Source of the DNA: a virus
Lineage: Duplodnaviria > Caudoviricetes
Strand: one strand, 5' to 3'
Length of the DNA: 64,000 bases
IMG/VR virus record: IMGVR_UViG_3300031867_000001
Span: 32,001 to 96,000 of that record
This document shows, in pieces, positions 7,955 through 31,500 of the stretch (its first letter is position 1; each line of letters begins with the position of its first letter). The notes under the pieces are model-generated. The model had not been told where the DNA came from. It made no database searches and worked only from the letters and a program-made list of their open reading frames with translations. Position numbers and translations under genes: made by a program.

Positions 7955-8090
7955 TGTGTATATGTGGAATGATGCGGCGAAACAGTTACATCGATTAATT
8001 TGTATTTAATTGCCATAAGCGGTTCATTTCTAAATGATCAAATGCTGTGGATAAAAACTGTTTCGAATAATTCTCATTCCACATTACACA
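7955..8090 (+). ncRNA. Conserved-stem tRNA-mimic RNA copy A (Thr TGT anticodon stem-loop)
   Basis: TGTGGAAT-GATGCGG-CGAAACAGTT-ACATC ... AACTGTTTCG-AATAATTCTC-ATTCCACA; insert CGATTAA-TTTGTAT-TTAATTG. Confidence 0.6.
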
Positions 8091-8099
8091 TATAAATAC

Positions 8100-8182
8100 A
8101 TTTCCGATGCAGTGATATCAGTTACTTCGTCAATCTGTTAAATTGAAATGAGTACTAAACTGATATAGATATTCTCGGAAAT
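8100..8182 (+). ncRNA. Conserved-stem tRNA-mimic RNA copy B (Asn GTT anticodon stem-loop only)
   Basis: ATTTCC-GATGCAG..ATATCAGTT-ACTTC [TCAAT-CTGTTAA-ATTGA AATGAGTA] AACTGATAT..ATTCTC-GGAAAT. Confidence 0.7.
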
Positions 8183-8197
8183 ATAACATATAAATAC

Positions 8198-8337
8198 ATT
8201 TAGCTGAAGCAGTCATTAACAGTTACTTCATACATATTTATGATTTTTAAGTTCGAATCTTAAGTTTGTAGCGTTTGTTTGCAATCTAAGTGGCTAAAGG
8301 AATGCCACATAACTGTTATGAATATCCTCAGCTAAAT
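8198..8337 (+). ncRNA. Conserved-stem RNA copy C with degenerate permuted tRNA-like domain (hairpin, T-arm, acceptor-like stem, D-like arm)
   Basis: ATTTAGCT-GAAGCAG..AACAGTT-ACTTC ... TTAAG-TTCGAAT-CTTAA T-arm ... GTGGC/GCCAC ... AACTGTT..ATCCTC-AGCTAAAT. Confidence 0.6.
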
Positions 8338-8341
8338 TTAT

Positions 8342-8475
8342 GGGGACGATAGCTCAGTTGGTAGAGCACGTAAATGTCACTGTTACAAAAATCCTCACCG
8401 GATAGGTGATGCAGAAGTTAACAGTTACTTCGCATATGGAGCGCGTTGTCGTTAGTTCAAATCTAACTCGTCCCC
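8342..8475 (+). tRNA. tRNA-His-like (anticodon ATG, G-1:C73) interrupted by a ~60-nt conserved element in the anticodon stem
   Basis: 8-bp acceptor GGGGACGA/TCGTCCCC, D-arm GCTC/GAGC, T-arm GTTAG-TTCAAAT-CTAAC; removing ~8371-8430 gives CGCGC-ATATGGA-GCGCG. Confidence 0.7.
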
Positions 8476-8483
8476 CTCATTTA

Positions 8484-8635
8484 ATATTGATATACCGATG
8501 CAGTGATGCCTGGATACTTCGTGGTGAATAGGTTAACACATAAGAATGAAAATCTTACATATCGGGTTCAAGTCCCGACGGGACATCTAATAGATGTTTA
8601 TGTCTCCAAGCTCGATATTCTCGGTATATTAATAT
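8484..8635 (+). ncRNA. Conserved-stem RNA copy D enclosing a circularly permuted tRNA-Phe(GAA)
   Basis: GATGCAG..ATACTTC, D-arm GTG/CAC, TAAGA-ATGAAAA-TCTTA, TCGGG-TTCAAGT-CCCGA, acceptor closed by a loop (GACATCT-AAT-AGATGTT), then ATTCTC and closing stem. Confidence 0.7.
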
Positions 8636-8638
8636 AAT

Positions 8639-8715
8639 GCGACTGTAGTTCAATTGGTCAGAACATCTGCCTTCCAAGCAGGGGGTTGCGAATTCGAGTT
8701 TCGTCAGTCGCTCCA
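8639..8715 (+). tRNA. tRNA-Gly(TCC)
   Basis: Cloverleaf, anticodon loop CTTCCAA, encoded CCA. Confidence 0.9.
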
Positions 8716-8716
8716 C

Positions 8717-8815
8717 ATGCATGATGCAGTTATATCAGTTACTTCGATAACCTGTCACGTTATAATGAGTATTCTGCAAAGAATAATGTGTACTGGTATA
8801 AACATTCTCATGCAT
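8717..8815 (+). ncRNA. Conserved-stem tRNA-mimic RNA copy E (Asp GTC anticodon stem-loop)
   Basis: ATGCAT-GATGCAG-TTATATCAGT-TACTTC [ATAAC-CTGTCAC-GTTAT AATGAGTA..] ACTGGTATAA-ACATTCTC-ATGCAT. Confidence 0.7.
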
Positions 8816-8978: not shown

Positions 8979-9083
8979 CGGGGTTATTATTTGAATAACC
9001 TCGCATTATGAAATGTTTGCAGGGCTTTTATGCCCTGCATTCATTTTCATTTTATTTTTATCATTTTAATGAGGTGATTAATC

Positions 9084-9278
9084 ATGACTGTTAACAAAAT
9101 CAAATTTCCAGATGGTACAGTAATCGATGTTGATAATGAAAAAACATTGAATGAGATTATGTCAATGCGTAAAGACATTAGAGACTTGAAAGATGCTGTT
9201 GGAACATTGAATTACAGAATCAATGATGTTATGCATATGATCGAAGAATTAAAACGTGATGTTTCATATTTACATTAA
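9084..9278 (+). CDS. Small coiled-coil hypothetical protein
   Basis: RBS GAGGTG; heptad-like C-terminus. Confidence 0.6.
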   Translation: MTVNKIKFPDGTVIDVDNEKTLNEIMSMRKDIRDLKDAVGTLNYRINDVMHMIEELKRDVSYLH

Positions 9279-9372
9279 ACGATACAACTAACAAATATAG
9301 TGGATGGAATATAGTCGGTCTGATTCTCAAATTTCATACAATGATTCTTCCTTTTGCAACCATCCACTTTAG

Positions 9373-9448
9373 GTCCGTTTAGCTCAGTTGGTAGAGCATG
9401 AAACCTTTAATTTCAGGGCCAAGGGTTCAACTCCCTTAACGGACACCA
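9373..9448 (+). tRNA. tRNA-Lys(TTT), with C at position 33
   Basis: Acceptor GTCCGTT/AACGGAC, TGAAA-CCTTTAA-TTTCA, encoded CCA. Confidence 0.8.
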
Positions 9449-9616
9449 TTGGTGCATTGGTACGTGCACCTCAAACACTGTGTAACGGGTCAATGTCAGT
9501 TCACGGACATTGACCCCCTCCTTCTTTACATGGTGAACGTTATTCACTTCTCATAGTTCGGTCGGGGGATTGCTCCCCCGACTCCTCCTTTTTCTATTTT
9601 TTATATTTTATTTATT

Positions 9617-9631
9617 TATATAATTAATATG
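9617..9631 (+). promoter_or_regulatory. Candidate phage promoter TATATAATTAATATG upstream of the Cas7-like gene
   Basis: Exact 15-mer recurring four times in intergenic positions. Confidence 0.6.
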
Positions 9632-9696
9632 TAATGAACACAGGTCAGGTATTCATTACAATATCATTTATAATAAATCTTTGGAGGTAATGTTTT

Positions 9697-10380
9697 ATGA
9701 AAAAGCTTAATGTCAAGGTCGTATTCGTAACAGGTCTGCTCGGTACAAAGCCGAACAATCAGGAAATCTTCTCGGAGTTTATCGCATCTAATGCACCGGA
9801 TGCAAAGACCCGTCAGCAGGAGATTGAAGACTCGTCCGTATCCGAGGTTGTTGACAAGTCGACAACTGTATTCGCCCGCACCAAGGATGGTAGACCCGTA
9901 TTTATGGACTATCACTGGAAGGGTTACTTCAAGGAGAAGTGCTCGTTCCTGAAGAAGAATGATACCGTTGATGATGGTTCCAAGCCGAAGTCCGCATCCA
10001 TCAAGGCTTTCAAGAAAGAGATTGATGGAAACATCTTCGTGTATCCCCGCAAGATCGTAATCCATACTGATGATGAGCTCACGATCAACCAGAGACCTCT
10101 CCGCACACAGACTATGCAGGGTGAACGTGTTGCGCTCAATTCGTCTGAGGAGATTCATGCACGTTCGTGGTGTGAGTTCACCGTAGAGTGCGAAATCGAG
10201 AAGCATGTTGAGTCCGTTCGTGAGTGGCTGAATTATGGTGTTAAGCACGGCACTGGTCAGTGGAGAAACTCTGGTGCAGGTAGATTCCTGTGGATGGAAC
10301 TCGATGATGAAGGAAACCAGATCGGTGGAAACTACACGGAAGAGAAACTCGAAGAGCTGATTGCTGAAGACGAGCTGTAA
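9697..10380 (+). CDS. Stand-alone Cas7/RAMP-superfamily-like protein
   Basis: N-terminal beta-strand then LLGT.P, a KGYFKE helix, RPLR thumb region and C-terminal glycine-rich loop YG...GTGQWRNSGAGRF; RBS GGAGG; no other cas gene in the window. Confidence 0.75.
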   Translation: MKKLNVKVVFVTGLLGTKPNNQEIFSEFIASNAPDAKTRQQEIEDSSVSEVVDKSTTVFARTKDGRPVFMDYHWKGYFKEKCSFLKKNDTVDDGSKPKSASIKAFKKEIDGNIFVYPRKIVIHTDDELTINQRPLRTQTMQGERVALNSSEEIHARSWCEFTVECEIEKHVESVREWLNYGVKHGTGQWRNSGAGRFLWMELDDEGNQIGGNYTEEKLEELIAEDEL

Positions 10381-10390
10381 TATGTGTGAT

Positions 10391-10420
10391 AATATGGTGG
10401 GAGTTACTCCCACCATATTT
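10391..10420 (+). terminator. Hairpin (terminator or processing stem) between Cas7-like gene and array 1
   Basis: AATATGGTGGGAG-TTA-CTCCCACCATATT. Confidence 0.65.
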
Positions 10421-10432
10421 ATATATCGCATT

Positions 10433-10996
10433 GGTATAGCTTAGTTAGATAGCGTGATATTCAGTAACGGTCCAGCCCCGCGAAGTAGGGCAGTGTAACG
10501 GTTAGGCGTGGTCCAATGTAGTGAAGTAATGTAAAGGTATAGTGTGGACCAGCGTAGAAATGTGTTGGTACGGTGTAGTCCAACAAAGTAAGGTTGTGTG
10601 CCGGTATGGTGGAACAAAGTAGGATCATGTAATGTGCTGGTACGACGACGTGGAGTAGATTCAAGTTTCGCACTGTAATGGCATGGTGAAGCAAGGTGAA
10701 GCACCGTAATGTTATGGCACGGTATGTTGAGGTCAAGTAAAGTAATGGTATGGTGGAGCCGTGTAATCTTCTGTAAAGGTATAGTCAGGTGATGTAACGT
10801 CTGGTAACGGTAATGTCAAGTGAAGTAATGCAGAAGTAATGTAATGGTTTTGTATGGTGTTGTGGACCAGAGTGAGACGATGCTTTGTATCGGTACTGTC
10901 TTGTACTTTGCGGCTTGGTATGGCATAGGTACAGTATTCCGTTGTTCGATAATATACAGCATGGGTACTGCGCAGTTCAATACGGTTCCGTGTGGC
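10433..10996 (+). repeat. Pentamer-periodic array 1 (16 units, GGY-[NNNGY]n-NNN); candidate guide-RNA array
   Basis: Unit starts 10433, 10469, 10500, 10536, 10567, 10603, 10639, 10680, 10716, 10747, 10778, 10809, 10846, 10892, 10928, 10964; 75 of 94 periods end in GT/GC by hand count. Confidence 0.85.
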
Positions 10997-11031
10997 GAAT
11001 CTTATAATAATAAAGAAGGAGAGTGTTAAAT

Positions 11032-11751
11032 ATGCATAAGGTTGATGGAGCAGAACTTCTCGGAATTCTCATTCGTAAGCTTACGGAGAATTGGGAGAAG
11101 TTGTGTGATGAATATTTGGACGAGGGTGAAGATCGTCCATCTTTCGGAGTTCTCCCAACGACCAATTACATCAAATGGTCAAAGGAAAACATCATCAGCA
11201 GTGTTAAGCTGATCAGCGTTGAAGACGAAATATCTGTTGAGGGTGTTAATGGCGCACTTAATGTGGTATGTAATCAGATTGATGGTATGATATTAAACGG
11301 ATATCCGATCCTTGATGATCTGGTTGTCGGATATGATGATGACGATGTTGCAGTATACCATAAGTCATATACCATTCTTGCGGAGAATCTTGCAACGATG
11401 ATGGTAGACGTGCGTGTTCCGGAATTGCTACTGGACTATCTGTATCTCTATCAGAAAATCTGCATTGGCAGATACCTGTATGAGATCAGAAACGTCATCA
11501 CTGATGATGTTGTGACTGGTGCTGATATACTTGGCAAACTGAATAGCTTTGCTATTAGTACACTGGGAGAAAATGCGAAAGTTAATAAGCTTGATCCATT
11601 AAGTAAGTTCGAAGTTGTGACATATGAACGAGAAGCAATCAAGTATGTTGGTATTGATCTGGATCATATCCGGTATGTATTCAAGACATACAATCAAACC
11701 ATTGAAAGATCGCGGACTTTCTATGTCCCCGATGACATTTACAATTCGTAA
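11032..11751 (+). CDS. Hypothetical protein between the two arrays
   Basis: RBS GAAGGAG; acidic 239 aa; stop codon overlaps first junction of array 2. Confidence 0.75.
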   Translation: MHKVDGAELLGILIRKLTENWEKLCDEYLDEGEDRPSFGVLPTTNYIKWSKENIISSVKLISVEDEISVEGVNGALNVVCNQIDGMILNGYPILDDLVVGYDDDDVAVYHKSYTILAENLATMMVDVRVPELLLDYLYLYQKICIGRYLYEIRNVITDDVVTGADILGKLNSFAISTLGENAKVNKLDPLSKFEVVTYEREAIKYVGIDLDHIRYVFKTYNQTIERSRTFYVPDDIYNS

Positions 11752-11752
11752 T

Positions 11753-13076
11753 GGTATTGTACAGCGCCGTACAGTGCAATACAGTCCGGTGATGGTAGGG
11801 TGGAGTAAAGTCTCACGGCGTAAAGTCCAGTCATGGCAAAGCAAAGTGTTACAATGTACAGGCGAAACGAGGTATCATATTGCAACGTAATGTGAAGGTT
11901 AGGCGAATCTGGGTACAGTATCGCGTTGTAATGGTAAAGTAAAGTGCACTTTCGTAGCGTCCTGTAATGGTTAAGTTTAGCATTGTGATGTTTAACTGAA
12001 GTTCAGCATAGTGATGTGTCGGCGAAGTAAAGCGTCGTAATATCACGTAAGGTGACGTCATGGTATGGCAAAGCTGCGTAGTATATTGTCTCGTGATGTA
12101 ATGGTAAAGCAAAGTACTGCGGAGTAAAATCTGGTGACGTAAAGGTCATGTTACGTATTGTGTCATCATGTACGGTGCTGGTATGGCAAAGTTACTCAGT
12201 GTATTGTAAAGGCAAAGCAGCGCAATCTCCTGTATTGTTAAGGCAAAGTCAGGTCATGTAATATCCCGTAATGTAAGGGTGAAGCATCGTGCCGAATCGC
12301 ATTGTCTCGTACCGTGTAGGTTATGTTAGGTGAATTAGGGCACAGCATTGTGTTGTATCGGTAAAGCTTAGCTATGTAAGTAAAGTAAGGTATCGGCAAC
12401 GTAAGGTCATACAGCGCACAATAAATTTGTGTAATGGCAGAGTACAGCTTAGCGTGATCACGCATTGTAATGTTTCGGCAAGGAATTGTTATGTTATGTT
12501 CAGGCAGAGTATAGTTGATTGTCGTTATATTTAGCTATGTTCAGGTATTGTGATGCTAAGTGGGCTATAGCACGGTGTTGGTGACGCTAAGTTTGGTATG
12601 GTGGTGTAATGGTTATGTGAAGTTCTGTACAGTCACGGTAAAGTGGAGCATCGTAGGGTGATGTGACGGTTATGTTTAGTTACACACTGCAATGTCACGT
12701 ATTATGTCATCATGTAATGGTAAGGTAGAGTGGAACAATCTTGTGCTGAGTGTAGGTAATGTGGCGCTAAGCAAAGTACTGGTAAAGTTTGGCATGATGA
12801 TATGACGGTGTAGTATAGTTCATCTCAGTAGCGTAACGGTTATGTTTAATGACGTAGAGTAACGTCTCGGCAAGGTATACCTATGTTTTCTGAAGTAATG
12901 TTTTGGTATTGTTATGCACGCTCATGCTAAGCTAAGCAGGGTTTGGTGCAGCGTCGGTATTGTATAGGCTTCTCACGTACAGTTGTGTCGAGTAAAGCAG
13001 CGGTGTTGCATAGTATGATCGAGCGCCGTAGTGGTGTTGTATGCCAGGGTTGACATGCGTTATGTCCGGTATTGTT
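11753..13076 (+). repeat. Pentamer-periodic array 2 (~37 units, mostly 26/31/36/41/51 nt); candidate guide-RNA array
   Basis: Same grammar, e.g. starts 11753, 11794, 11835, 11861, 11897, 11933, 11969 ... 12838, 12869, 12905, 12956; degenerates after ~12960. Confidence 0.85.
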
Positions 13077-13099
13077 ATACCACAACAAAAAGAATTAAA

Positions 13100-13130
13100 C
13101 CCCGCCCATATGGGCGGGGCATTCTTTTTT
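13100..13130. terminator. Bidirectional terminator closing array 2 and the endolysin gene
   Basis: CCCCGCCCA-TA-TGGGCGGGG with A-rich and T-rich flanks. Confidence 0.75.
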
Positions 13131-14088
13131 ATACTTTCAGCTTCCAACCAACCTTGATGAAGTTTGGAGTAATCTGGGGATACTTGGACTTGTTGTTGTT
13201 AACAATCTTCTTGACAGTAGTCTTGTACTTACTTGCAATTGCACCGAGTGTATCACCACGTTTAACCGTGTATGTTCTCTCAGCATTCGCTTGTGCTGTC
13301 TTAGCAGCGTTTGCTTTCAGAAGCTTATTGACTGCTTCTTGTACAGCCGCATAGTTATAACCAGCTGCTGCCAAACGAGTCTTTCTGTCAGCACCATTAC
13401 CCCACTTACCATCCAGAACTTCTTGAGCAATTTCATCAATACTCTTGGTAGGAGTTGTCGGTTTGGTGGGTGTTACAACTACATCATCATCATTAGACTT
13501 TCCGATATTGTCATTATAACAATATGACATATCTACATCACCGACAATACCATTGATTCGACCCTTCCAAGAATATTGCCACATATCAAATGGACCGGCA
13601 TAAGAGGTCTGTTTGCAATTTATCTGTGCTACCCAGACGGTGTACTTATTCTTCATCTCAGTAGTGAGATAATCAGTCAATCCAGACTTCATGGAATACA
13701 GTCCAGGTGTGTAACCACCATCCTTGATGGTTTGACAGAAAGCATCAGCCATTGCACTTACATTGTTTCTACCAGTATTCAATTGAGATCTTTCTTCAAA
13801 GTCAAAGTATACTGGGAATTGAAGCTTTCTACCGCCCAGAACCTGAAGACATACTTGTGCTTCAAGTTTTGCATCAGCAACTGTCTTGGCATAAGAATAC
13901 CAATACACGCCAACTGGGATGTTGTTATCTACACAACCTTGGTAGTTGCGATCAAACTTCTTATCCTTCTGAGATGCAAGTTTACCAAAACCTGCACGGA
14001 GAATGGCGAAGTTTACTCGATTGGATGCCTTTACTTTAGCCCAATCAATCGTACCATTATGCACGGATACATCAATACCATGTCTCAT
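13129..14088 (-). CDS. Endolysin: GH25 muramidase + Cpl-7 (CW_7) repeat + LysM
   Basis: GIDVSVHNG, YFDFEE, MWQYS, IDEIAQEVLDGKWGNGADR, YTVKRGDTLGAIA. Confidence 0.93.
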   Translation of the reverse strand: MRHGIDVSVHNGTIDWAKVKASNRVNFAILRAGFGKLASQKDKKFDRNYQGCVDNNIPVGVYWYSYAKTVADAKLEAQVCLQVLGGRKLQFPVYFDFEERSQLNTGRNNVSAMADAFCQTIKDGGYTPGLYSMKSGLTDYLTTEMKNKYTVWVAQINCKQTSYAGPFDMWQYSWKGRINGIVGDVDMSYCYNDNIGKSNDDDVVVTPTKPTTPTKSIDEIAQEVLDGKWGNGADRKTRLAAAGYNYAAVQEAVNKLLKANAAKTAQANAERTYTVKRGDTLGAIASKYKTTVKKIVNNNKSKYPQITPNFIKVGWKLKV

Positions 14089-28016: not shown

Positions 28017-28556
28017 ATGGCAAATATTTCCAAAGCCAAAGAAATATACAAATCAACACCCGGTAAGATTAATCCAAACAGACCACTTATTTCTGTGCAC
28101 GGTTTGTATGTTGCCGGATTATACCGTCCTCCATATTGGATTGACTCTGTACTGAATATTGTCAAGTTGTCAACAACATCCGCAGCAGATGTTGTATATT
28201 ATACTGAAACGTCTGATACTTCATATCCCGAGAAGAATGGTGTTATACAATTGACAAACATCGATATTGGTGATGCTGACATCATACAATACGGAGAAGA
28301 TTTCGATTCATCATATGAAAAAGATGGTATTGTGCAATTGACCGATATTAGTATTGGTGAACTTGATATCATATCATACGGCAATGATGAGAGTGATGTA
28401 TATACTGAAAAGAATGGTGTTATACAATTAACAGCGGTTAGTCTTGACGAGTATGATTTATATTTAATATCACAAAGATTAAATACTCAACCACCGGGTT
28501 TACCACAATTAAACATTAAACAAATCGGAGTCACAACAACTGCGGTTGTTTCATAA
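28017..28556 (+). CDS. Hypothetical virion-associated protein, paralogue A2
   Basis: MANISKAKEIYKSTPGKINPN..., three EKxGxxQLT repeats. Confidence 0.75.
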   Translation: MANISKAKEIYKSTPGKINPNRPLISVHGLYVAGLYRPPYWIDSVLNIVKLSTTSAADVVYYTETSDTSYPEKNGVIQLTNIDIGDADIIQYGEDFDSSYEKDGIVQLTDISIGELDIISYGNDESDVYTEKNGVIQLTAVSLDEYDLYLISQRLNTQPPGLPQLNIKQIGVTTTAVVS

Positions 28557-28585
28557 ATAAAAAGAAAGTTAGGTGAAATAATATA

Positions 28586-31500
28586 ATGGACAATATTGCA
28601 AGGATGGATCATATAGATCCAAACATAAATCAATTTATCAATAACATTATCAACCAAACAAAAATGGTTGAATTAACATTACATAATATTTATGAGATAA
28701 AATTAATTGATAAAGACACAAATGATGTTGACACATATTATGGTGTGAATTTAATGACAAATTGGTTTTTCAAAAACCGATACATGGGCGATGCGGATAC
28801 TGCATCAAGAAACTGTTATATTATGATTGGAGATGGTATTGATGCATCACATCAGCCAAGTGTTGATAATCGTGCCATGTATCATATCATAACAAACACA
28901 TACAAATCGAATGATACGTCACAATCTGTCCAACCAGTTGAATATAATAGTACTGATAGAATGATTCTCCAAACAATAAAAGTTTGTAAAACAAAATATG
29001 ATTATAATATAAACGGATATGATTCAGATGTCACGATTAATGAAATTGGTTATGGCAATTCACCAACCATTCTGTATTCTCATTCAAAAGTATATGATAT
29101 AAATGGTACTGAAAAAACAATCATCAAACGACCGAATCAATCATTAGAAATAACATTGTATTGGAAAATTAGCATACCTGAATCCGTATTTACTTCTTTG
29201 GAGACGAATGGTATTTACGGTGCATTCTCACCATATATATTATTACGCGACATTTCAAATAGCATTGGCAACAAACCGCGCATATATCCATATTTACGTA
29301 ATTCTGCAAGAAATTTATGTGGGTCGACAAATTATTCGGATAGTGCTTCATATCGAAAAACATGGTATAGTGATTTTGGATCGACGAGTTATGGTGGCAC
29401 CATTGTTCAAAATGATGATGGATCACGAACATGGAATTCATCATCAGAATCATATGTTCTTGAAACAGATAAATTTGATTCATTCACATCAGTATTATAC
29501 AGAAATAGTTGTCCCGGTTACATTACAAACATCAAATGTGCCGCTTTTTACAGTGGTATATGTTTATTTAGATATTTTAAGTTACCAGCGCCAGAGACTA
29601 TTGAAACGATTGTAAAGACGACGATGTTTTATAATTGTAACTTTTATAATATTATGGGAGTAAATTATCAATATCGAACGAATAATCGTGATTATAATGA
29701 AGATCGATCTGCACAACGGTATTTGCGAGGATATTTGCCAGTTGTTGATATGGACATACAATCAGTTTATCGCTACAATTTTTCAACATCCGCATTTGAT
29801 GTTGAAGAGTCATTTAACAATCCAAAACAAAATGATTACGATTTGACTGGGTTTCATTGTGCATGTTATCAATGGATGAAATGGCCTGACAATAAATCAC
29901 GTGATTCATATGTTTGTACGAATCAAAATACAACAACCCGATTAATTACTTCATTTGATGGAACCGGGGCAACGTGTTATGCGACTGATAAATGGTGGGA
30001 TGTGTCAACATGGGAATTGGTTTCTAATACAGAAGCAGTTGAACAATCATTACAACGTAAAAAGTATTATATATTCAATAAAGCCATCAATCTTGCTAAT
30101 AGCACGTCAACTTTGTCATTGTCAACATCAAATGCATGGATTCCAAATCCACAAACCCAGTATACTAATGGTGTTCATAAAATAAATGAACAATTCGAAA
30201 GACATGTTGATGAAACAAATGCACTTCTGTATGCTAATAACAACAGCATCCGATATATCACACATGCAAATGAAGATTACAACTTCTATGTTCAAAATAA
30301 TATTGTTTTCCGAAGACCGGAAACACAATTCTCAATATGTCCAGCACAATATATTTTTAATAATGTCAATAGCATATTTAGCAATGTAATTCCAGACGTA
30401 CGTTGGGTATTCCTTGGTAATCAATTAATTACAACAACCGGTAAATTGATATATCTGGTGGAATCATATGTTACAAACACACAACCGGGCTATACGAGAG
30501 AAGCATATGGTATAAGATTTTGTATTACAAATTTAGCATTACAAGATGATGCGATCAATAATTCAACAAAAGCCGTTTCTATAAATGATAAATTTACACA
30601 TACACTTGCGAACATCAACAACTATGTGTGTGTAACACATGGTAAATATTTGCTTTGTGACGGATATAATGAACTTATAATCTACAATACAGACACAGAT
30701 GATTATTGGTTATATCCATATAAAATAAACAAAGTTCGCGAGATTCATGGTACAAGTAAAATTATACTGAATCCTTCTTCTGATAATAACCGATGGACAA
30801 TTTATGATTGTGATACAAAACAGATCACACATCAATTTGATGTTCCGTCAGATTATGCACCAACAAAATTTCTTGCATTTGAAGATTGGATTTATATTTA
30901 TGCGACATATGGCTCCACACACGCAATGTTATTGTATACAATATCAACACAAGAACTGAAGCAGATAGAATATCCATCAATACTTGATTCATATGGTTTT
31001 TATGGTTTTACGCAATACTATAATGATTCTACGTATTCCGCAAACGGTGTTTCGAGCACAAACACGGATTACTTCATATCCGACGCGAGCAAATACAACT
31101 CATGTGGTGTGCAATATAAAGATGGAATTTTGTGTATTGTATCTCCTGACTATTACAATTCATTTATCATTATTTCGAGATATAATCCAGAACACATTAT
31201 CAATCAAAGCACATTCTTATCTGAATCAGACTATTCTGGTGTCAGTAGTGCATTAATTCAATTATGTAAAATATATGAAAATTATTATGTCGGATTCACT
31301 GTTGCTTCATACAGCTCTGGTTATTATAGATCAACAAAGTTCTATGACATTGGTAGAATCATCCGTAATGATAATGCGGTTACTTCATCAAATGAATCGG
31401 AGTATCAAGTTGATTATTTATGTTTTAACCGTGATGGTATGAATCCATGGTATTTCAATGTGATGACTGCATATAAGAATAAGATTTATGCATATGGCAA

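What the first reader, a model, noticed from the sequence alone, without database searches (positions are those of the whole stretch)
10433..13076. Array grammar: unit lengths quantised at 5n+6 nt, with a GY-NNN-GGY junction
Hand parsing gives GGY+(NNNGY)n+NNN, with lengths mostly 26/31/36/41/46/51. Examples: 10500 ggt taggc gtggt ccaat gtagt gaagt aatgt aaa; 12103 ggt aaagc aaagt actgc ggagt aaaat ctggt gacgt aaa. Exceptions before the degenerate 3' end are two off-by-one units (37 nt at 10809, 35 nt at 12360) and one AGT-type junction near 12000. In array 1 the pentamer before every junction ends in GY, often giving TGTAAYGGY, while internal pentamers tolerate substitutions. Phase is conserved while sequence is diverse, which points to selection on spacing rather than satellite slippage. 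The 6-nt step could be a processing site or filament boundary.
Basis: seen in the sequence. Interest (0 to 1): 0.85.

Follow-up and report, generated by a model that had tools for sequence, protein, structure and literature searches.

The report
Staggered VIPR guide-RNA arrays in jumbo phage
The five-base "grammar" is real: it is a pair of very large guide-RNA arrays (about 52 guides) of a VIPR system, a CRISPR-like phage system described in 2026 preprints, so this is a large example of a known kind and not a new one.

Summary
Two non-coding, G/T-rich stretches (10433-10996 and 11752-13085, + strand) are tiled by NNN-G-Y pentamers. One extra base, always at a GG-Y junction, appears every 26, 31, 36, 41, 46 or 51 nt. 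Parse scores stand 16 and 27 sd above dinucleotide shuffles. There are about 52 units, and the pattern occurs nowhere else in the 250.5-kb phage genome.

The gene just upstream (9697-10380) encodes a minimal Cas7/Csm3-like RAMP with an invariant G-loop. Its family is very large, with more than 570 IMG/VR loci. In at least 34 of the 80 loci fetched, arrays with the same grammar lie next to the gene. Close relatives that lack the gene lack the array.

This matches VIPR (bioRxiv 10.64898/2026.04.26.720920 and .720927). In VIPR, one Vipr protomer binds each pentamer, and the variable bases read dsDNA by a gapped code. The preprint also mentions "staggered arrays" with a 1-nt overlap and YNNNG repeats. 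This locus is of that variant.

New here:
- The size of the arrays.
- GGY is kept only at unit starts.
- The two residues that read G1 in phage SUSP1 Vipr are replaced.
- The third variable base evolves about 1.8 times faster than the other two.

No targets or RNA evidence were obtained. This scan has noted VIPR before in at least 32 other genomes.

The parts
9630..9662 (+). Promoter-like hexamers (TGAACA-16-TACAAT) overlapping a 12-bp inverted repeat, just upstream of vipr. Possible promoter or operator of the cassette.
   Evidence: Consensus scan only, at the level expected by chance. Sequence. Not evidence of function.
9697..10380 (+). vipr gene: a 227-aa minimal Cas7/Csm3-like RAMP, with the G-loop GTGQWRNSGAGRF at residues 185-197.
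   Evidence: AF2 model pLDDT 80. All 50 top Foldseek PDB hits are CRISPR RAMP backbone subunits, mostly Csm3, Cmr4 or type VII Cas7, best E 3e-6. VIA Z 9.9-9.1. Conserved motifs. Against L003 there are 71 nt differences, 68 of them at third codon positions. It is the only copy in the genome.
10392..10418 (+). 11-bp stem-loop directly after the vipr stop codon, conserved in relative L003. It separates vipr from array 1.
   Evidence: Read from the sequence. The terminator scan did not flag it because it has no T-run.
10433..10996 (+). vrRNA array 1: about 16 staggered units of 26-46 nt, each (G)GY + (NNNGY)n + NNN(G).
   Evidence: The first and last units are conserved in L003, while the middle differs in unit number.
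11032..11751 (+). 239-aa ORF between the two arrays. It is a phage backbone gene and probably not part of the system.
   Evidence: Only 20 homologues. It is present in relatives that have neither vipr nor arrays (L001, L002, L005, L006). It carries a premature stop in L003, whose vipr is intact. No Pfam, PHROG or NCBIfam hit. The AF2 model is too poor to use, pLDDT 52.
11752..13085 (+). vrRNA array 2: about 36 staggered units of 26-51 nt. The last 4-5 units (from about 12900) are degenerate.
   Evidence: It occupies the place of a 247-260-aa gene found in relatives, and no remnant of that gene is left.
13100..13119 (.). Bidirectional intrinsic terminator (8 G-C pairs, with T-runs on both strands). 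It closes array 2 and the convergent endolysin gene.

Best explanation
The two stretches are guide-RNA (vrRNA) arrays of a VIPR system. VIPR stands for Viral Interference Programmable Repeat. Here it is carried by a complete 250.5-kb phage of a Gram-positive host, probably from the rumen.

Proposed mechanism. The mechanism is known for the type II system of Escherichia phage SUSP1 and is only inferred here.
1. The arrays are transcribed on the + strand, the same strand as vipr.
2. Vipr (9697-10380) polymerises along the RNA, one protomer per pentamer.
3. The fixed G and pyrimidine of each pentamer are flipped into protein pockets.
4. The first two variable bases are displayed and pair with double-stranded DNA, skipping every third target base.
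5. Binding silences transcription of a competing phage or other mobile element.

The 5n+6 grammar is the 'staggered' array type. Each unit is read in a pentamer frame shifted by +1 relative to the previous unit. The junction GG is then the last G of one frame followed by the first G of the next. A filament therefore cannot run across a junction. Each of the ~52 units would be a separate guide of 5-10 repeats, reading 10-20 target bases within a 15-30 bp footprint.

This clade uses the xGY-NN (YNNNG) repeat variant. The G1 position of the canonical GGY is free inside units and is G only in the first repeat of a unit.
For: Grammar. It is real and position-specific.

Protein. The neighbouring protein has a RAMP/Cas7 fold with a G-loop, a thumb hairpin and a helical insertion.

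Co-occurrence.
- The family has more than 747 proteins and more than 570 IMG/VR loci.
- In at least 34 of the 80 fetched loci, arrays with the same 5n+6 grammar (5-9 repeats per unit) lie directly beside the gene on its strand.
- The 266-kb relative L003/L004, whose Vipr is 98% identical, has a shorter array 1. Relatives without the gene have no array.

Published description read here.
- Vipr is an ancestral single-RRM RAMP encoded mostly by phages.
- vrRNAs are tandem YNNGG repeats flanking vipr.
- One protomer binds each repeat.
- NN pairs with dsDNA under a 1-nt skip rule.
- Staggered arrays have a 1-nt overlap (fig. S18).
- Alternative NNNGG, YNNNG and NNNNG repeats exist.

Comparison with SUSP1. 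I retrieved the SUSP1 locus. Its 195-aa protein carries 11 of the 12 residues named in the structure preprint at the stated positions; position 175 reads V, not the T given there. YNNGG repeats lie on the vipr strand on both sides of the gene. The G-loops align as GVGDWRPRFGRF (SUSP1) against GTGQWRNSGAGRF (this phage). The residues that bind G2 and Y3 (W178, R179) are kept as W189 and R190. The two that bind G1 are replaced by nearly invariant T17 (for H17) and invariant Q188 (for D177). This fits the loss of G1 conservation.

Substitution rates between homologous array segments are 10.1% at a, 13.6% at b, 20.8% at c, 3.0% at G, 6.2% at Y and 2.3% at the junction G. This fits a and b being the read bases, c a spacer, and G/Y protein-bound.

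Folding. The arrays fold no better than shuffles (z -0.17 and -1.8). A displayed single strand would be expected to behave this way.
Against: - No RNA evidence.
- No accessory (vap) gene was found.
- Sequence similarity to the characterised SUSP1 Vipr is limited to the G-loop (hhalign E 0.04, probability 1.3%). Homology therefore rests on fold and context.
- No statistically supported target was found.
- Units are shorter (5-10 repeats) than the characterised vrRNAs (9-16 repeats) and lack the 3' tail or pseudoknot.
- According to the preprint itself, staggered arrays have not been confirmed by small-RNA sequencing.
Confidence: 0.85

Rival explanations
1. The RNA-protein filament is real, but the arrays are not DNA guides. 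The pentamer RNA would serve only as a scaffold, decoy or sponge. For example it might titrate a host RNA-binding factor or a type III CRISPR complex, or nucleate a Vipr polymer with some other role. The variable bases would then drift neutrally.
For: No target was found for any decoded guide above the shuffled controls. Units are short, with 10-20 read bases. Interior repeats tolerate loss of the G. There is no vap gene.
Against: Variable positions a and b evolve about half as fast as c, so they are not all neutral. The characterised relatives use the same architecture for programmable DNA binding. The target search here was very shallow: five guides, each scanned in one to three public collections, by exact pattern only.
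Confidence: 0.07
2. The element acts at the DNA level. It would be an array of protein-binding sites phased to the double helix. The mean step of 5.13-5.2 bp, doubled, is 10.25-10.4 bp, about one helical turn. It could be a partition site, an origin or a packaging site.
For: The Fourier peak lies at 5.1-5.2. The occasional +1 step keeps the motif close to helical register.
Against: The motif is strongly strand-asymmetric and always lies on the vipr coding strand. Unit lengths vary from 26 to 51 nt, so the slip is not regular, unlike a correction to keep helical register. The arrays track a RAMP RNA-binding protein and not any DNA-binding gene. Close relatives gain and lose units freely.
Confidence: 0.03
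3. It is a diverged tandem satellite with no function, produced by slippage or duplication of a ~31-36-nt unit.
For: Some neighbouring units are clear paralogues: 11966 and 11992, 12059 and 12177, and 10497, 10533 and 10564. TRF reports a weak 31-nt period.
Against: Conservation is position-specific (G, Y and the junction GG) while the rest is near random. Lengths are quantised in steps of 5. The same grammar, with unrelated sequences, recurs next to the same gene family in dozens of phages.
Confidence: 0.02

Closest known systems
VIPR systems with staggered vrRNA arrays and YNNNG-type repeats (bioRxiv 10.64898/2026.04.26.720920, fig. S18 legend and the methods section 'VIPR type classification')
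   Same: - A lone minimal RAMP gene in a phage, flanked by non-coding pentamer-repeat arrays on its own strand.
- Neighbouring guides are offset by one overlapping nucleotide.
- The fixed part of the repeat is reduced to G-Y.
   Different: - I could not see the figure or the data files, so the VIPR type (I-VII) cannot be assigned and unit-by-unit identity with the published examples is unverified.
- This locus has about 52 units in two arrays split by an unrelated gene.
- No vap gene was recognised.
- According to the preprint, staggered arrays were not confirmed by small-RNA sequencing.
Type II VIPR of Escherichia phage SUSP1 (Vipr = ALH47069.1, 195 aa; vap1; four ~100-nt vrRNAs; structures in 10.64898/2026.04.26.720927)
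   Same: - RAMP fold.
- A G-loop with the W-R pair that holds G2 and Y3.
- Pentamer repeats on the vipr strand, both upstream and downstream of the gene.
- One protomer per repeat (published).
   Different: - SUSP1 repeats are GGY-NN, in runs of 9-16, each run followed by a ~40-nt structured tail with a pseudoknot. Here they are xGY-NN in runs of 5-10, with no tail, abutting with a +1 slip.
- The G1-binding residues H17 and D177 are T17 and Q188 here.
- Sequence similarity is confined to the G-loop.
- No vap1 homologue sits next to vipr.
Cas7 backbone subunits of type III and type VII CRISPR-Cas (Csm3, Cmr4, Cas7 of type VII)
   Same: These are the best structural matches. They share an RRM core, a G-rich loop and a thumb that flips guide bases at a fixed period.
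   Different: - The period is 5 nt with two fixed bases, not 6 nt with any base.
- There is no CRISPR repeat-spacer array, and no cas10, cas6, cas1 or cas2 nearby.
- The protein is smaller, with a single RRM and no catalytic-loop context.
- The system is phage-encoded.
TRAP (trp RNA-binding attenuation protein) binding sites
   Same: A short fixed motif repeated about every 5 nt on a single-stranded RNA, with one protein subunit per repeat.
   Different: TRAP sites are 9-11 (G/U)AG triplets wrapped around one ring. They lack the phase-slip grammar and arrays of dozens of units, and they are not associated with a RAMP. I considered this early and dropped it once the neighbouring protein proved to be a RAMP.

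Membership tests
VIPR | Vipr protein: a small single-RRM RAMP with a glycine-rich loop and a thumb | tested here: met
   227 aa. AF2 model pLDDT 80. Foldseek top 50 are all CRISPR RAMP backbone subunits (mostly Csm3/Cmr4/Cas7), probability 1.0. VIA Z 9.1-9.9 over about 130-170 residues. The GxGQWRNSG part of the G-loop is invariant across 28 family members.
VIPR | Sequence homology to an experimentally characterised Vipr (SUSP1) | tested here: inconclusive
   hhalign of the family profile against SUSP1 ALH47069.1 aligns only the G-loop region (28 columns, 43% identity, E 0.04, probability 1.3%). The preprint itself says RAMPs share little sequence similarity.
VIPR | vrRNA region: tandem pentamer repeats (at least 4 per guide) with a conserved G/Y motif alternating with hypervariable bases, in intergenic DNA flanking vipr on its strand | tested here: met
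   G 82%, Y 98%, NNN about 0.1 bit each. Units have 5-10 repeats. One array begins 53 nt after vipr. The second follows the next ORF.
VIPR | Canonical GGY/NN consensus | tested here: not met
   The G1 position is G in only 19% of pentamers. It is G in 96% of cases only in the first repeat of a unit. The repeat is the YNNNG alternative that the preprint lists as a related consensus. This marks a variant and does not exclude membership.
VIPR | Staggered array: adjacent guides offset by one overlapping nucleotide | tested here: met
   Exactly one +1 step at each of about 52 junctions. 48 of 51 interior units fall on 5n+6, against a mean of 18 in shuffles. The wording of the fig. S18 legend was read.
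VIPR | Gene and array co-occur across relatives | tested here: met
   A strict parse finds units in 34 of the loci. Autocorrelation flags about 50 of 80. L003/L004, which have vipr, have an array. L001, L002, L005 and L006 have neither.
VIPR | Carried by a phage or provirus | tested here: met
   The 250.5-kb virus record has direct terminal repeats and is 100% complete by CheckV. A GH25-CW_7-LysM endolysin lies next door.
VIPR | Accessory vap gene beside vipr | tested here: inconclusive
   The only adjacent ORF (11032-11751) also occurs in relatives without vipr and is broken in L003. Its model is unusable. No single neighbour is conserved across the 72 loci examined.
VIPR | vrRNAs are expressed, processed and bound by Vipr | not testable with these tools
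VIPR | Guides match natural dsDNA targets under the 1-nt skip (NNx) rule | tested here: inconclusive
   There are no hits above shuffled controls in the phage's own genome or in the loci fetched (about 0.93 Mb when first scanned). Five guides were scanned in public collections, and the hits found are compatible with chance. The one lead is L122:368-391.
VIPR type II (SUSP1-like) | A conserved ~40-nt structured 3' tail or pseudoknot after each repeat tract | tested here: not met
   Units abut directly with no conserved spacer. Folding is not better than shuffles.
CRISPR-Cas type III | A CRISPR array of direct repeats of 24 nt or more with spacers, plus cas10 and other cas genes, and a 6-nt guide period | tested here: not met
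   TRF and the parse find no long direct repeats. The period is 5, not 6. The neighbouring genes are tRNAs, an orphan ORF and an endolysin. The genome holds only one RAMP gene of this family.

The most novel reading that the evidence does not exclude
Staggered arrays may work without RNA cleavage. The 1-nt frame slip itself would end one Vipr filament and seed the next. One long transcript would then carry about 52 independent mini-filaments of only 5-10 protomers, which is shorter than any characterised vrRNA.

Specificity might then come from several guides acting together, or from the freed third base. The G1 pocket has been lost here (H17 to T, D177 to Q), so that base might help to read the 'skipped' target base.

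The guides may be aimed at promoter-proximal or 5' regions of early operons of rival phages. The candidate is L122:368-391, which matches guide 11791 at 22 of 24 bases. It lies directly after a TTGACA / TAATAAT promoter-like pair and ahead of an exonuclease and Sak4-like recombination operon.
Probability: 0.15. Interest if true: 0.6.

Novelty: new member of a known kind. Interest (0 to 1): 0.38.

Why it matters
VIPR was described only in 2026. Its 'staggered' arrays were reported from sequence alone. This locus gives a clean, very large natural example: about 52 guides in 1.9 kb, in a complete 250-kb phage of a Gram-positive host.

Several rules of that array type can be read from it:
- A strict +1 frame slip at a GG-Y junction.
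- Well-conserved end repeats and tolerant interior repeats.
- GGY only in the first repeat of a unit.
- Units of 5-10 repeats.
- Rapid gain and loss of units while Vipr stays under strong purifying selection.

The locus also links a repeat variant (xGY-NN) to specific changes in the two residues that read G1 in the solved SUSP1 structure. That gives a testable specificity rule for engineering.

It does not change the picture of what VIPR is.

Tried and rejected
Known RNA and DNA matches
- Rfam scan of 9000-14000: only a tRNA at 9373-9445 and sub-threshold noise.
- blastn of the locus against GenBank phages: no match.
- Pfam, PHROGs and NCBIfam for Vipr and for the 239-aa ORF: nothing.
- Single-sequence search for related loci for both proteins: nothing. 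The alignment-based search worked.

Early ideas dropped
- TRAP-like RNA, TIGR-Tas, primase sites and helical-phase DNA were dropped once the RAMP fold and the gene-array co-occurrence were seen.

Literature
- A search for 'Cas7-like phage array' gave nothing useful. The VIPR name and DOIs came from earlier notes of this scan. I then read the preprints.

RNA evidence
- The look-up of sequencing runs listed two bovine-gut metatranscriptomes holding 0.22 and 0.09 of the sampled words.
There is therefore no expression or end-mapping evidence.

Target hunt
- I decoded 52 guides.
- Local scans under NNx and NNN, and under ten alternative rules for 111 guides from 35 arrays, gave no excess over shuffled guides. 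The '.abc.' and 'ab...' rules only re-find the arrays themselves.
- Exact NNx pattern scans gave these results:
  - Guide 12665 (10 repeats): 0 hits in IMG/VR, 5 in JGI metagenomes and 7 in GTDB genomes. Third-base matches were 0-4 of 10 and the taxa were unrelated, which looks like chance.
  - Guide 10843: 0 hits.
  - Guide 12059: 20 scattered hits.
  - Guide 11791: 3 hits, one of them the L122 lead.
  - Guide 12275: 14 hits that spell a common hydrophobic peptide motif.
- No locus is hit by several guides beyond control. By my estimate the L122 match has roughly a 0.1-0.3 chance of arising at random given the searches made.

Other
- AF2 model of the 239-aa ORF: pLDDT 52, not searched further.
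- Neighbour clustering across 72 loci found no universal accessory gene.
Full report
**What is in the sequence**

Two non-coding, G/T-rich stretches lie on the + strand at 10433-10996 and 11752-13085 (C 14%, G 29-31%). They flank a 239-aa ORF. The autocorrelation of G-pyrimidine dinucleotides is very strong at lags 5, 10 and 15. It then moves to lags 16, 21, 26, 31 and 36, with z up to 16.6. The ORF between the arrays and a control region show nothing similar.

A Viterbi tiling resolves the stretches into units of NNNGGY followed by n pentamers NNNGY. Unit lengths are 36 nt (15 units), 31 (12), 41 (10), 26 (8), 46 (2) and 51 (2).

Against 200 dinucleotide-preserving shuffles the parse score is 15.9 sd (array 1) and 26.8 sd (array 2) above the mean. 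Quantised units number 14 of 15 and 34 of 36. No shuffle gave more than 10 and 19.

Conservation is position-specific:
- Pentamer position 4 is G in 82% and position 5 is C/T in 98%.
- Positions 1-3 carry about 0.1 bit each.
- The junction GG is 96-98% conserved.
- The G is 96% in the first and last pentamers of a unit but 74% in the interior.

A genome-wide scan of the 250.5-kb phage finds this pattern nowhere else, on either strand.

**The partner gene**

The ORF just upstream (9697-10380, 227 aa) has no Pfam, PHROG or NCBIfam match. It nevertheless belongs to a large family: more than 747 proteins in the protein collection and more than 570 loci in IMG/VR.

Its alignment shows an invariant C-terminal GxGQWRNSG motif, which is the RAMP glycine-rich loop pattern. 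An AlphaFold model (pLDDT 80) matches only CRISPR RAMP backbone subunits:
- Foldseek: all 50 top hits are RAMP backbone subunits, mostly Csm3, Cmr4 or type VII Cas7. Best E is 3e-6 and probability 1.0.
- VIA-align: Z 9.9-9.1.

An earlier first-stage note on this same stretch had guessed 'Cas7/RAMP-like'. That guess is now tested and holds.

**Gene and array travel together**

Homologues of the 239-aa ORF led to related jumbo-phage contigs.
- The 266-kb relative (L003, L004) has a Vipr that is 98% identical in protein. It carries a shorter array 1 in the same place.
- The relatives L001, L002, L005 and L006 have other genes in place of the RAMP gene and have no array.

Among 80 IMG/VR loci fetched with the family profile, about 50 show a period-5 G-pyrimidine signal directly beside the gene. 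A strict parse recovers 178 units in 34 loci, with 5-9 repeats per unit in nearly all. The grammar is the same although the sequences are unrelated. In many gut-phage loci the fixed dinucleotide is GC and the junction reads ARGGC-ATAGC.

**Identification**

Earlier notes of this scan named VIPR systems and gave two bioRxiv DOIs, which I read. The first preprint, 10.64898/2026.04.26.720920, describes:
- Vipr, an ancestral single-RRM RAMP found mostly in phages.
- vrRNAs made of tandem YNNGG repeats in the intergenic DNA flanking vipr.
- Recognition of dsDNA by the NN bases under a 1-nt skip rule.
- Transcriptional silencing of competing phages.
- Seven VIPR types.
[quoted passage not shown] - Alternative repeats NNNGG, YNNNG and NNNNG.

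The second preprint, 10.64898/2026.04.26.720927, shows one protomer per repeat. G1 is read by H17 and D177, G2 by R138 and W178, and Y3 by a pocket that includes R179.

The grammar in this window is the staggered type with YNNNG repeats. If the pentamer is written x-G-Y-N-N, each unit is read in a frame shifted by +1. The junction GG is the last frame's G followed by the next frame's G. That is the one-nucleotide overlap and gives a period of 5n+6.

**Comparison with the characterised system**

I retrieved phage SUSP1 (KT454805). The 195-aa gene at 28474-29061 (minus strand) carries 11 of the 12 residues named in the structure preprint at the stated positions; position 175 reads V, where the preprint gives T. 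YNNGG runs of about 11-12 repeats, each followed by a hairpin tail, lie on its strand on both sides of the gene.

A profile comparison aligns only the G-loop region (E 0.04): GVGDWRPRFGRF in SUSP1 against GTGQWRNSGAGRF here. The W-R pair that holds G2 and Y3 is conserved as W189 and R190. The two G1-reading residues are replaced by nearly invariant T17 and invariant Q188. This agrees with the loss of G at the G1 position inside units (19% G). The H17-to-T17 correspondence is inferred from position in the first strand. The D177-to-Q188 correspondence comes from the alignment.

**How the variable bases behave**

I compared homologous array segments between related loci (47 ungapped HSPs, 31 locus pairs).

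| Pentamer position | Substitution rate |
|---|---|
| a (first variable base) | 10.1% |
| b (second variable base) | 13.6% |
| c (third variable base, the old G1 position) | 20.8% |
| G | 3.0% |
| Y | 6.2% |
| Junction G | 2.3% |

This fits a and b being read, c acting as a spacer or wobble-like position, and G/Y being held by protein. The pairs are not phylogenetically independent, so this is an indication and not a formal test.

Orthologous guides in the window and in L003 differ mainly at c (CCC/CCA, AGG/AGA, GTA/GTC). The arrays fold no better than shuffles (z -0.17 and -1.8), in line with a displayed single strand.

**Dynamics**

- vipr differs from its L003 orthologue at 71 nucleotides, 68 of them at third codon positions. 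This indicates strong purifying selection.
- Array 1 keeps its first and last units, but the middle differs: about 430 nt here against about 110 nt in L003.
- Array 2 (about 36 units) sits where relatives carry a 247-260-aa gene, and no remnant of that gene is left.
- Some units are recent paralogues that share even a defective pentamer, for example 12141 and 12665.
- Another large phage (L007, 155 kb) has at least 41 units on both sides of its vipr.

**What could not be shown**

- Accessory gene: none was recognised.
- Targets: decoded guides show no excess of matches over shuffled guides in the phage's own genome or in the loci fetched (about 0.93 Mb when first scanned). Exact NNx pattern scans for five guides gave either nothing or hits compatible with chance.
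- One lead: guide 11791 matches L122:368-391 at all 16 NN positions and at 6 of 8 third positions. The site lies immediately downstream of a TTGACA / TAATAAT promoter-like pair. It is upstream of an operon with an exonuclease and a Sak4-like annealing protein. A paralogous guide (12100) matches the same site at 14 of 16 positions, shifted by two repeats. By my estimate this could arise by chance with a probability of roughly 0.1-0.3 given the searches made, so it is a lead only.

**Verdict**

The grammar is real and functional. It is best explained as two staggered VIPR vrRNA arrays served by the adjacent Vipr gene (confidence 0.85). The kind is already described in 2026 preprints and has been met repeatedly in this scan, so this is a new member and not a new kind.

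Its value lies in four things: the size and clarity of the arrays, the explicit junction rule, the link between the xGY repeat and the G1-pocket substitutions, and the evidence that the third variable base is the least constrained.

Noticed in passing
window 9373-9445: A tRNA gene (Rfam 68.7 bits) followed by two strong terminator-like hairpins at 9487-9516 and 9560-9583, just upstream of the vipr cassette. Earlier notes of the scan describe a cluster of tRNA-like or Y-RNA-like elements at 7955-8815.
   Followed up: no
L003:4760-4835 and L001:5930-6000; compare window 9600-9696: In the related jumbo phages the genes at this position are preceded by a conserved AT-rich element containing the hairpin TATGCATAAGGAAyAAATCCyTTATGTAAAA. 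The window has a different 12-bp inverted repeat (9630-9660) at the same place. This may be a family of phage promoter or operator elements.
   Followed up: no
L003:5848-5882: The homologue of the 239-aa ORF has an in-frame TGA after about 10 codons in the 266-kb relative. The gene caller restarted it at an internal ATG, giving 191 aa. The neighbouring vipr is intact.
   Followed up: partly
L007:1900-5100 (IMGVR_UViG_3300010163_000006, 155 kb): A second large phage with at least 41 staggered units on both sides of its vipr gene. Very large VIPR arrays may be a feature of big phages.
   Followed up: partly
L038, L049, L060, L076 and similar 40-60 kb gut-phage loci: In these apparently temperate phages vipr and its array sit in the early region. 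A divergent CI-like HTH repressor or Ant/Rha antirepressor lies on one side. The ERF / DUF1351 / RuvC-like recombination module lies on the other.
   Followed up: partly
L122:341-402 (IMGVR_UViG_3300009370_001256): A near-consensus promoter-like pair (TTGACA, then TAATAAT) is followed by a 24-nt stretch that equals decoded guide 11791 at 22 of 24 bases, ahead of an exonuclease and Sak4-like operon. It is a candidate natural target, not statistically established.
   Followed up: partly
window 13129-14088 (- strand): An endolysin with GH25, CW_7 and LysM domains, conserved in all relatives. It points to a Gram-positive host. Sample names of related contigs and the bovine-gut RNA runs suggest the rumen.
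   Followed up: no
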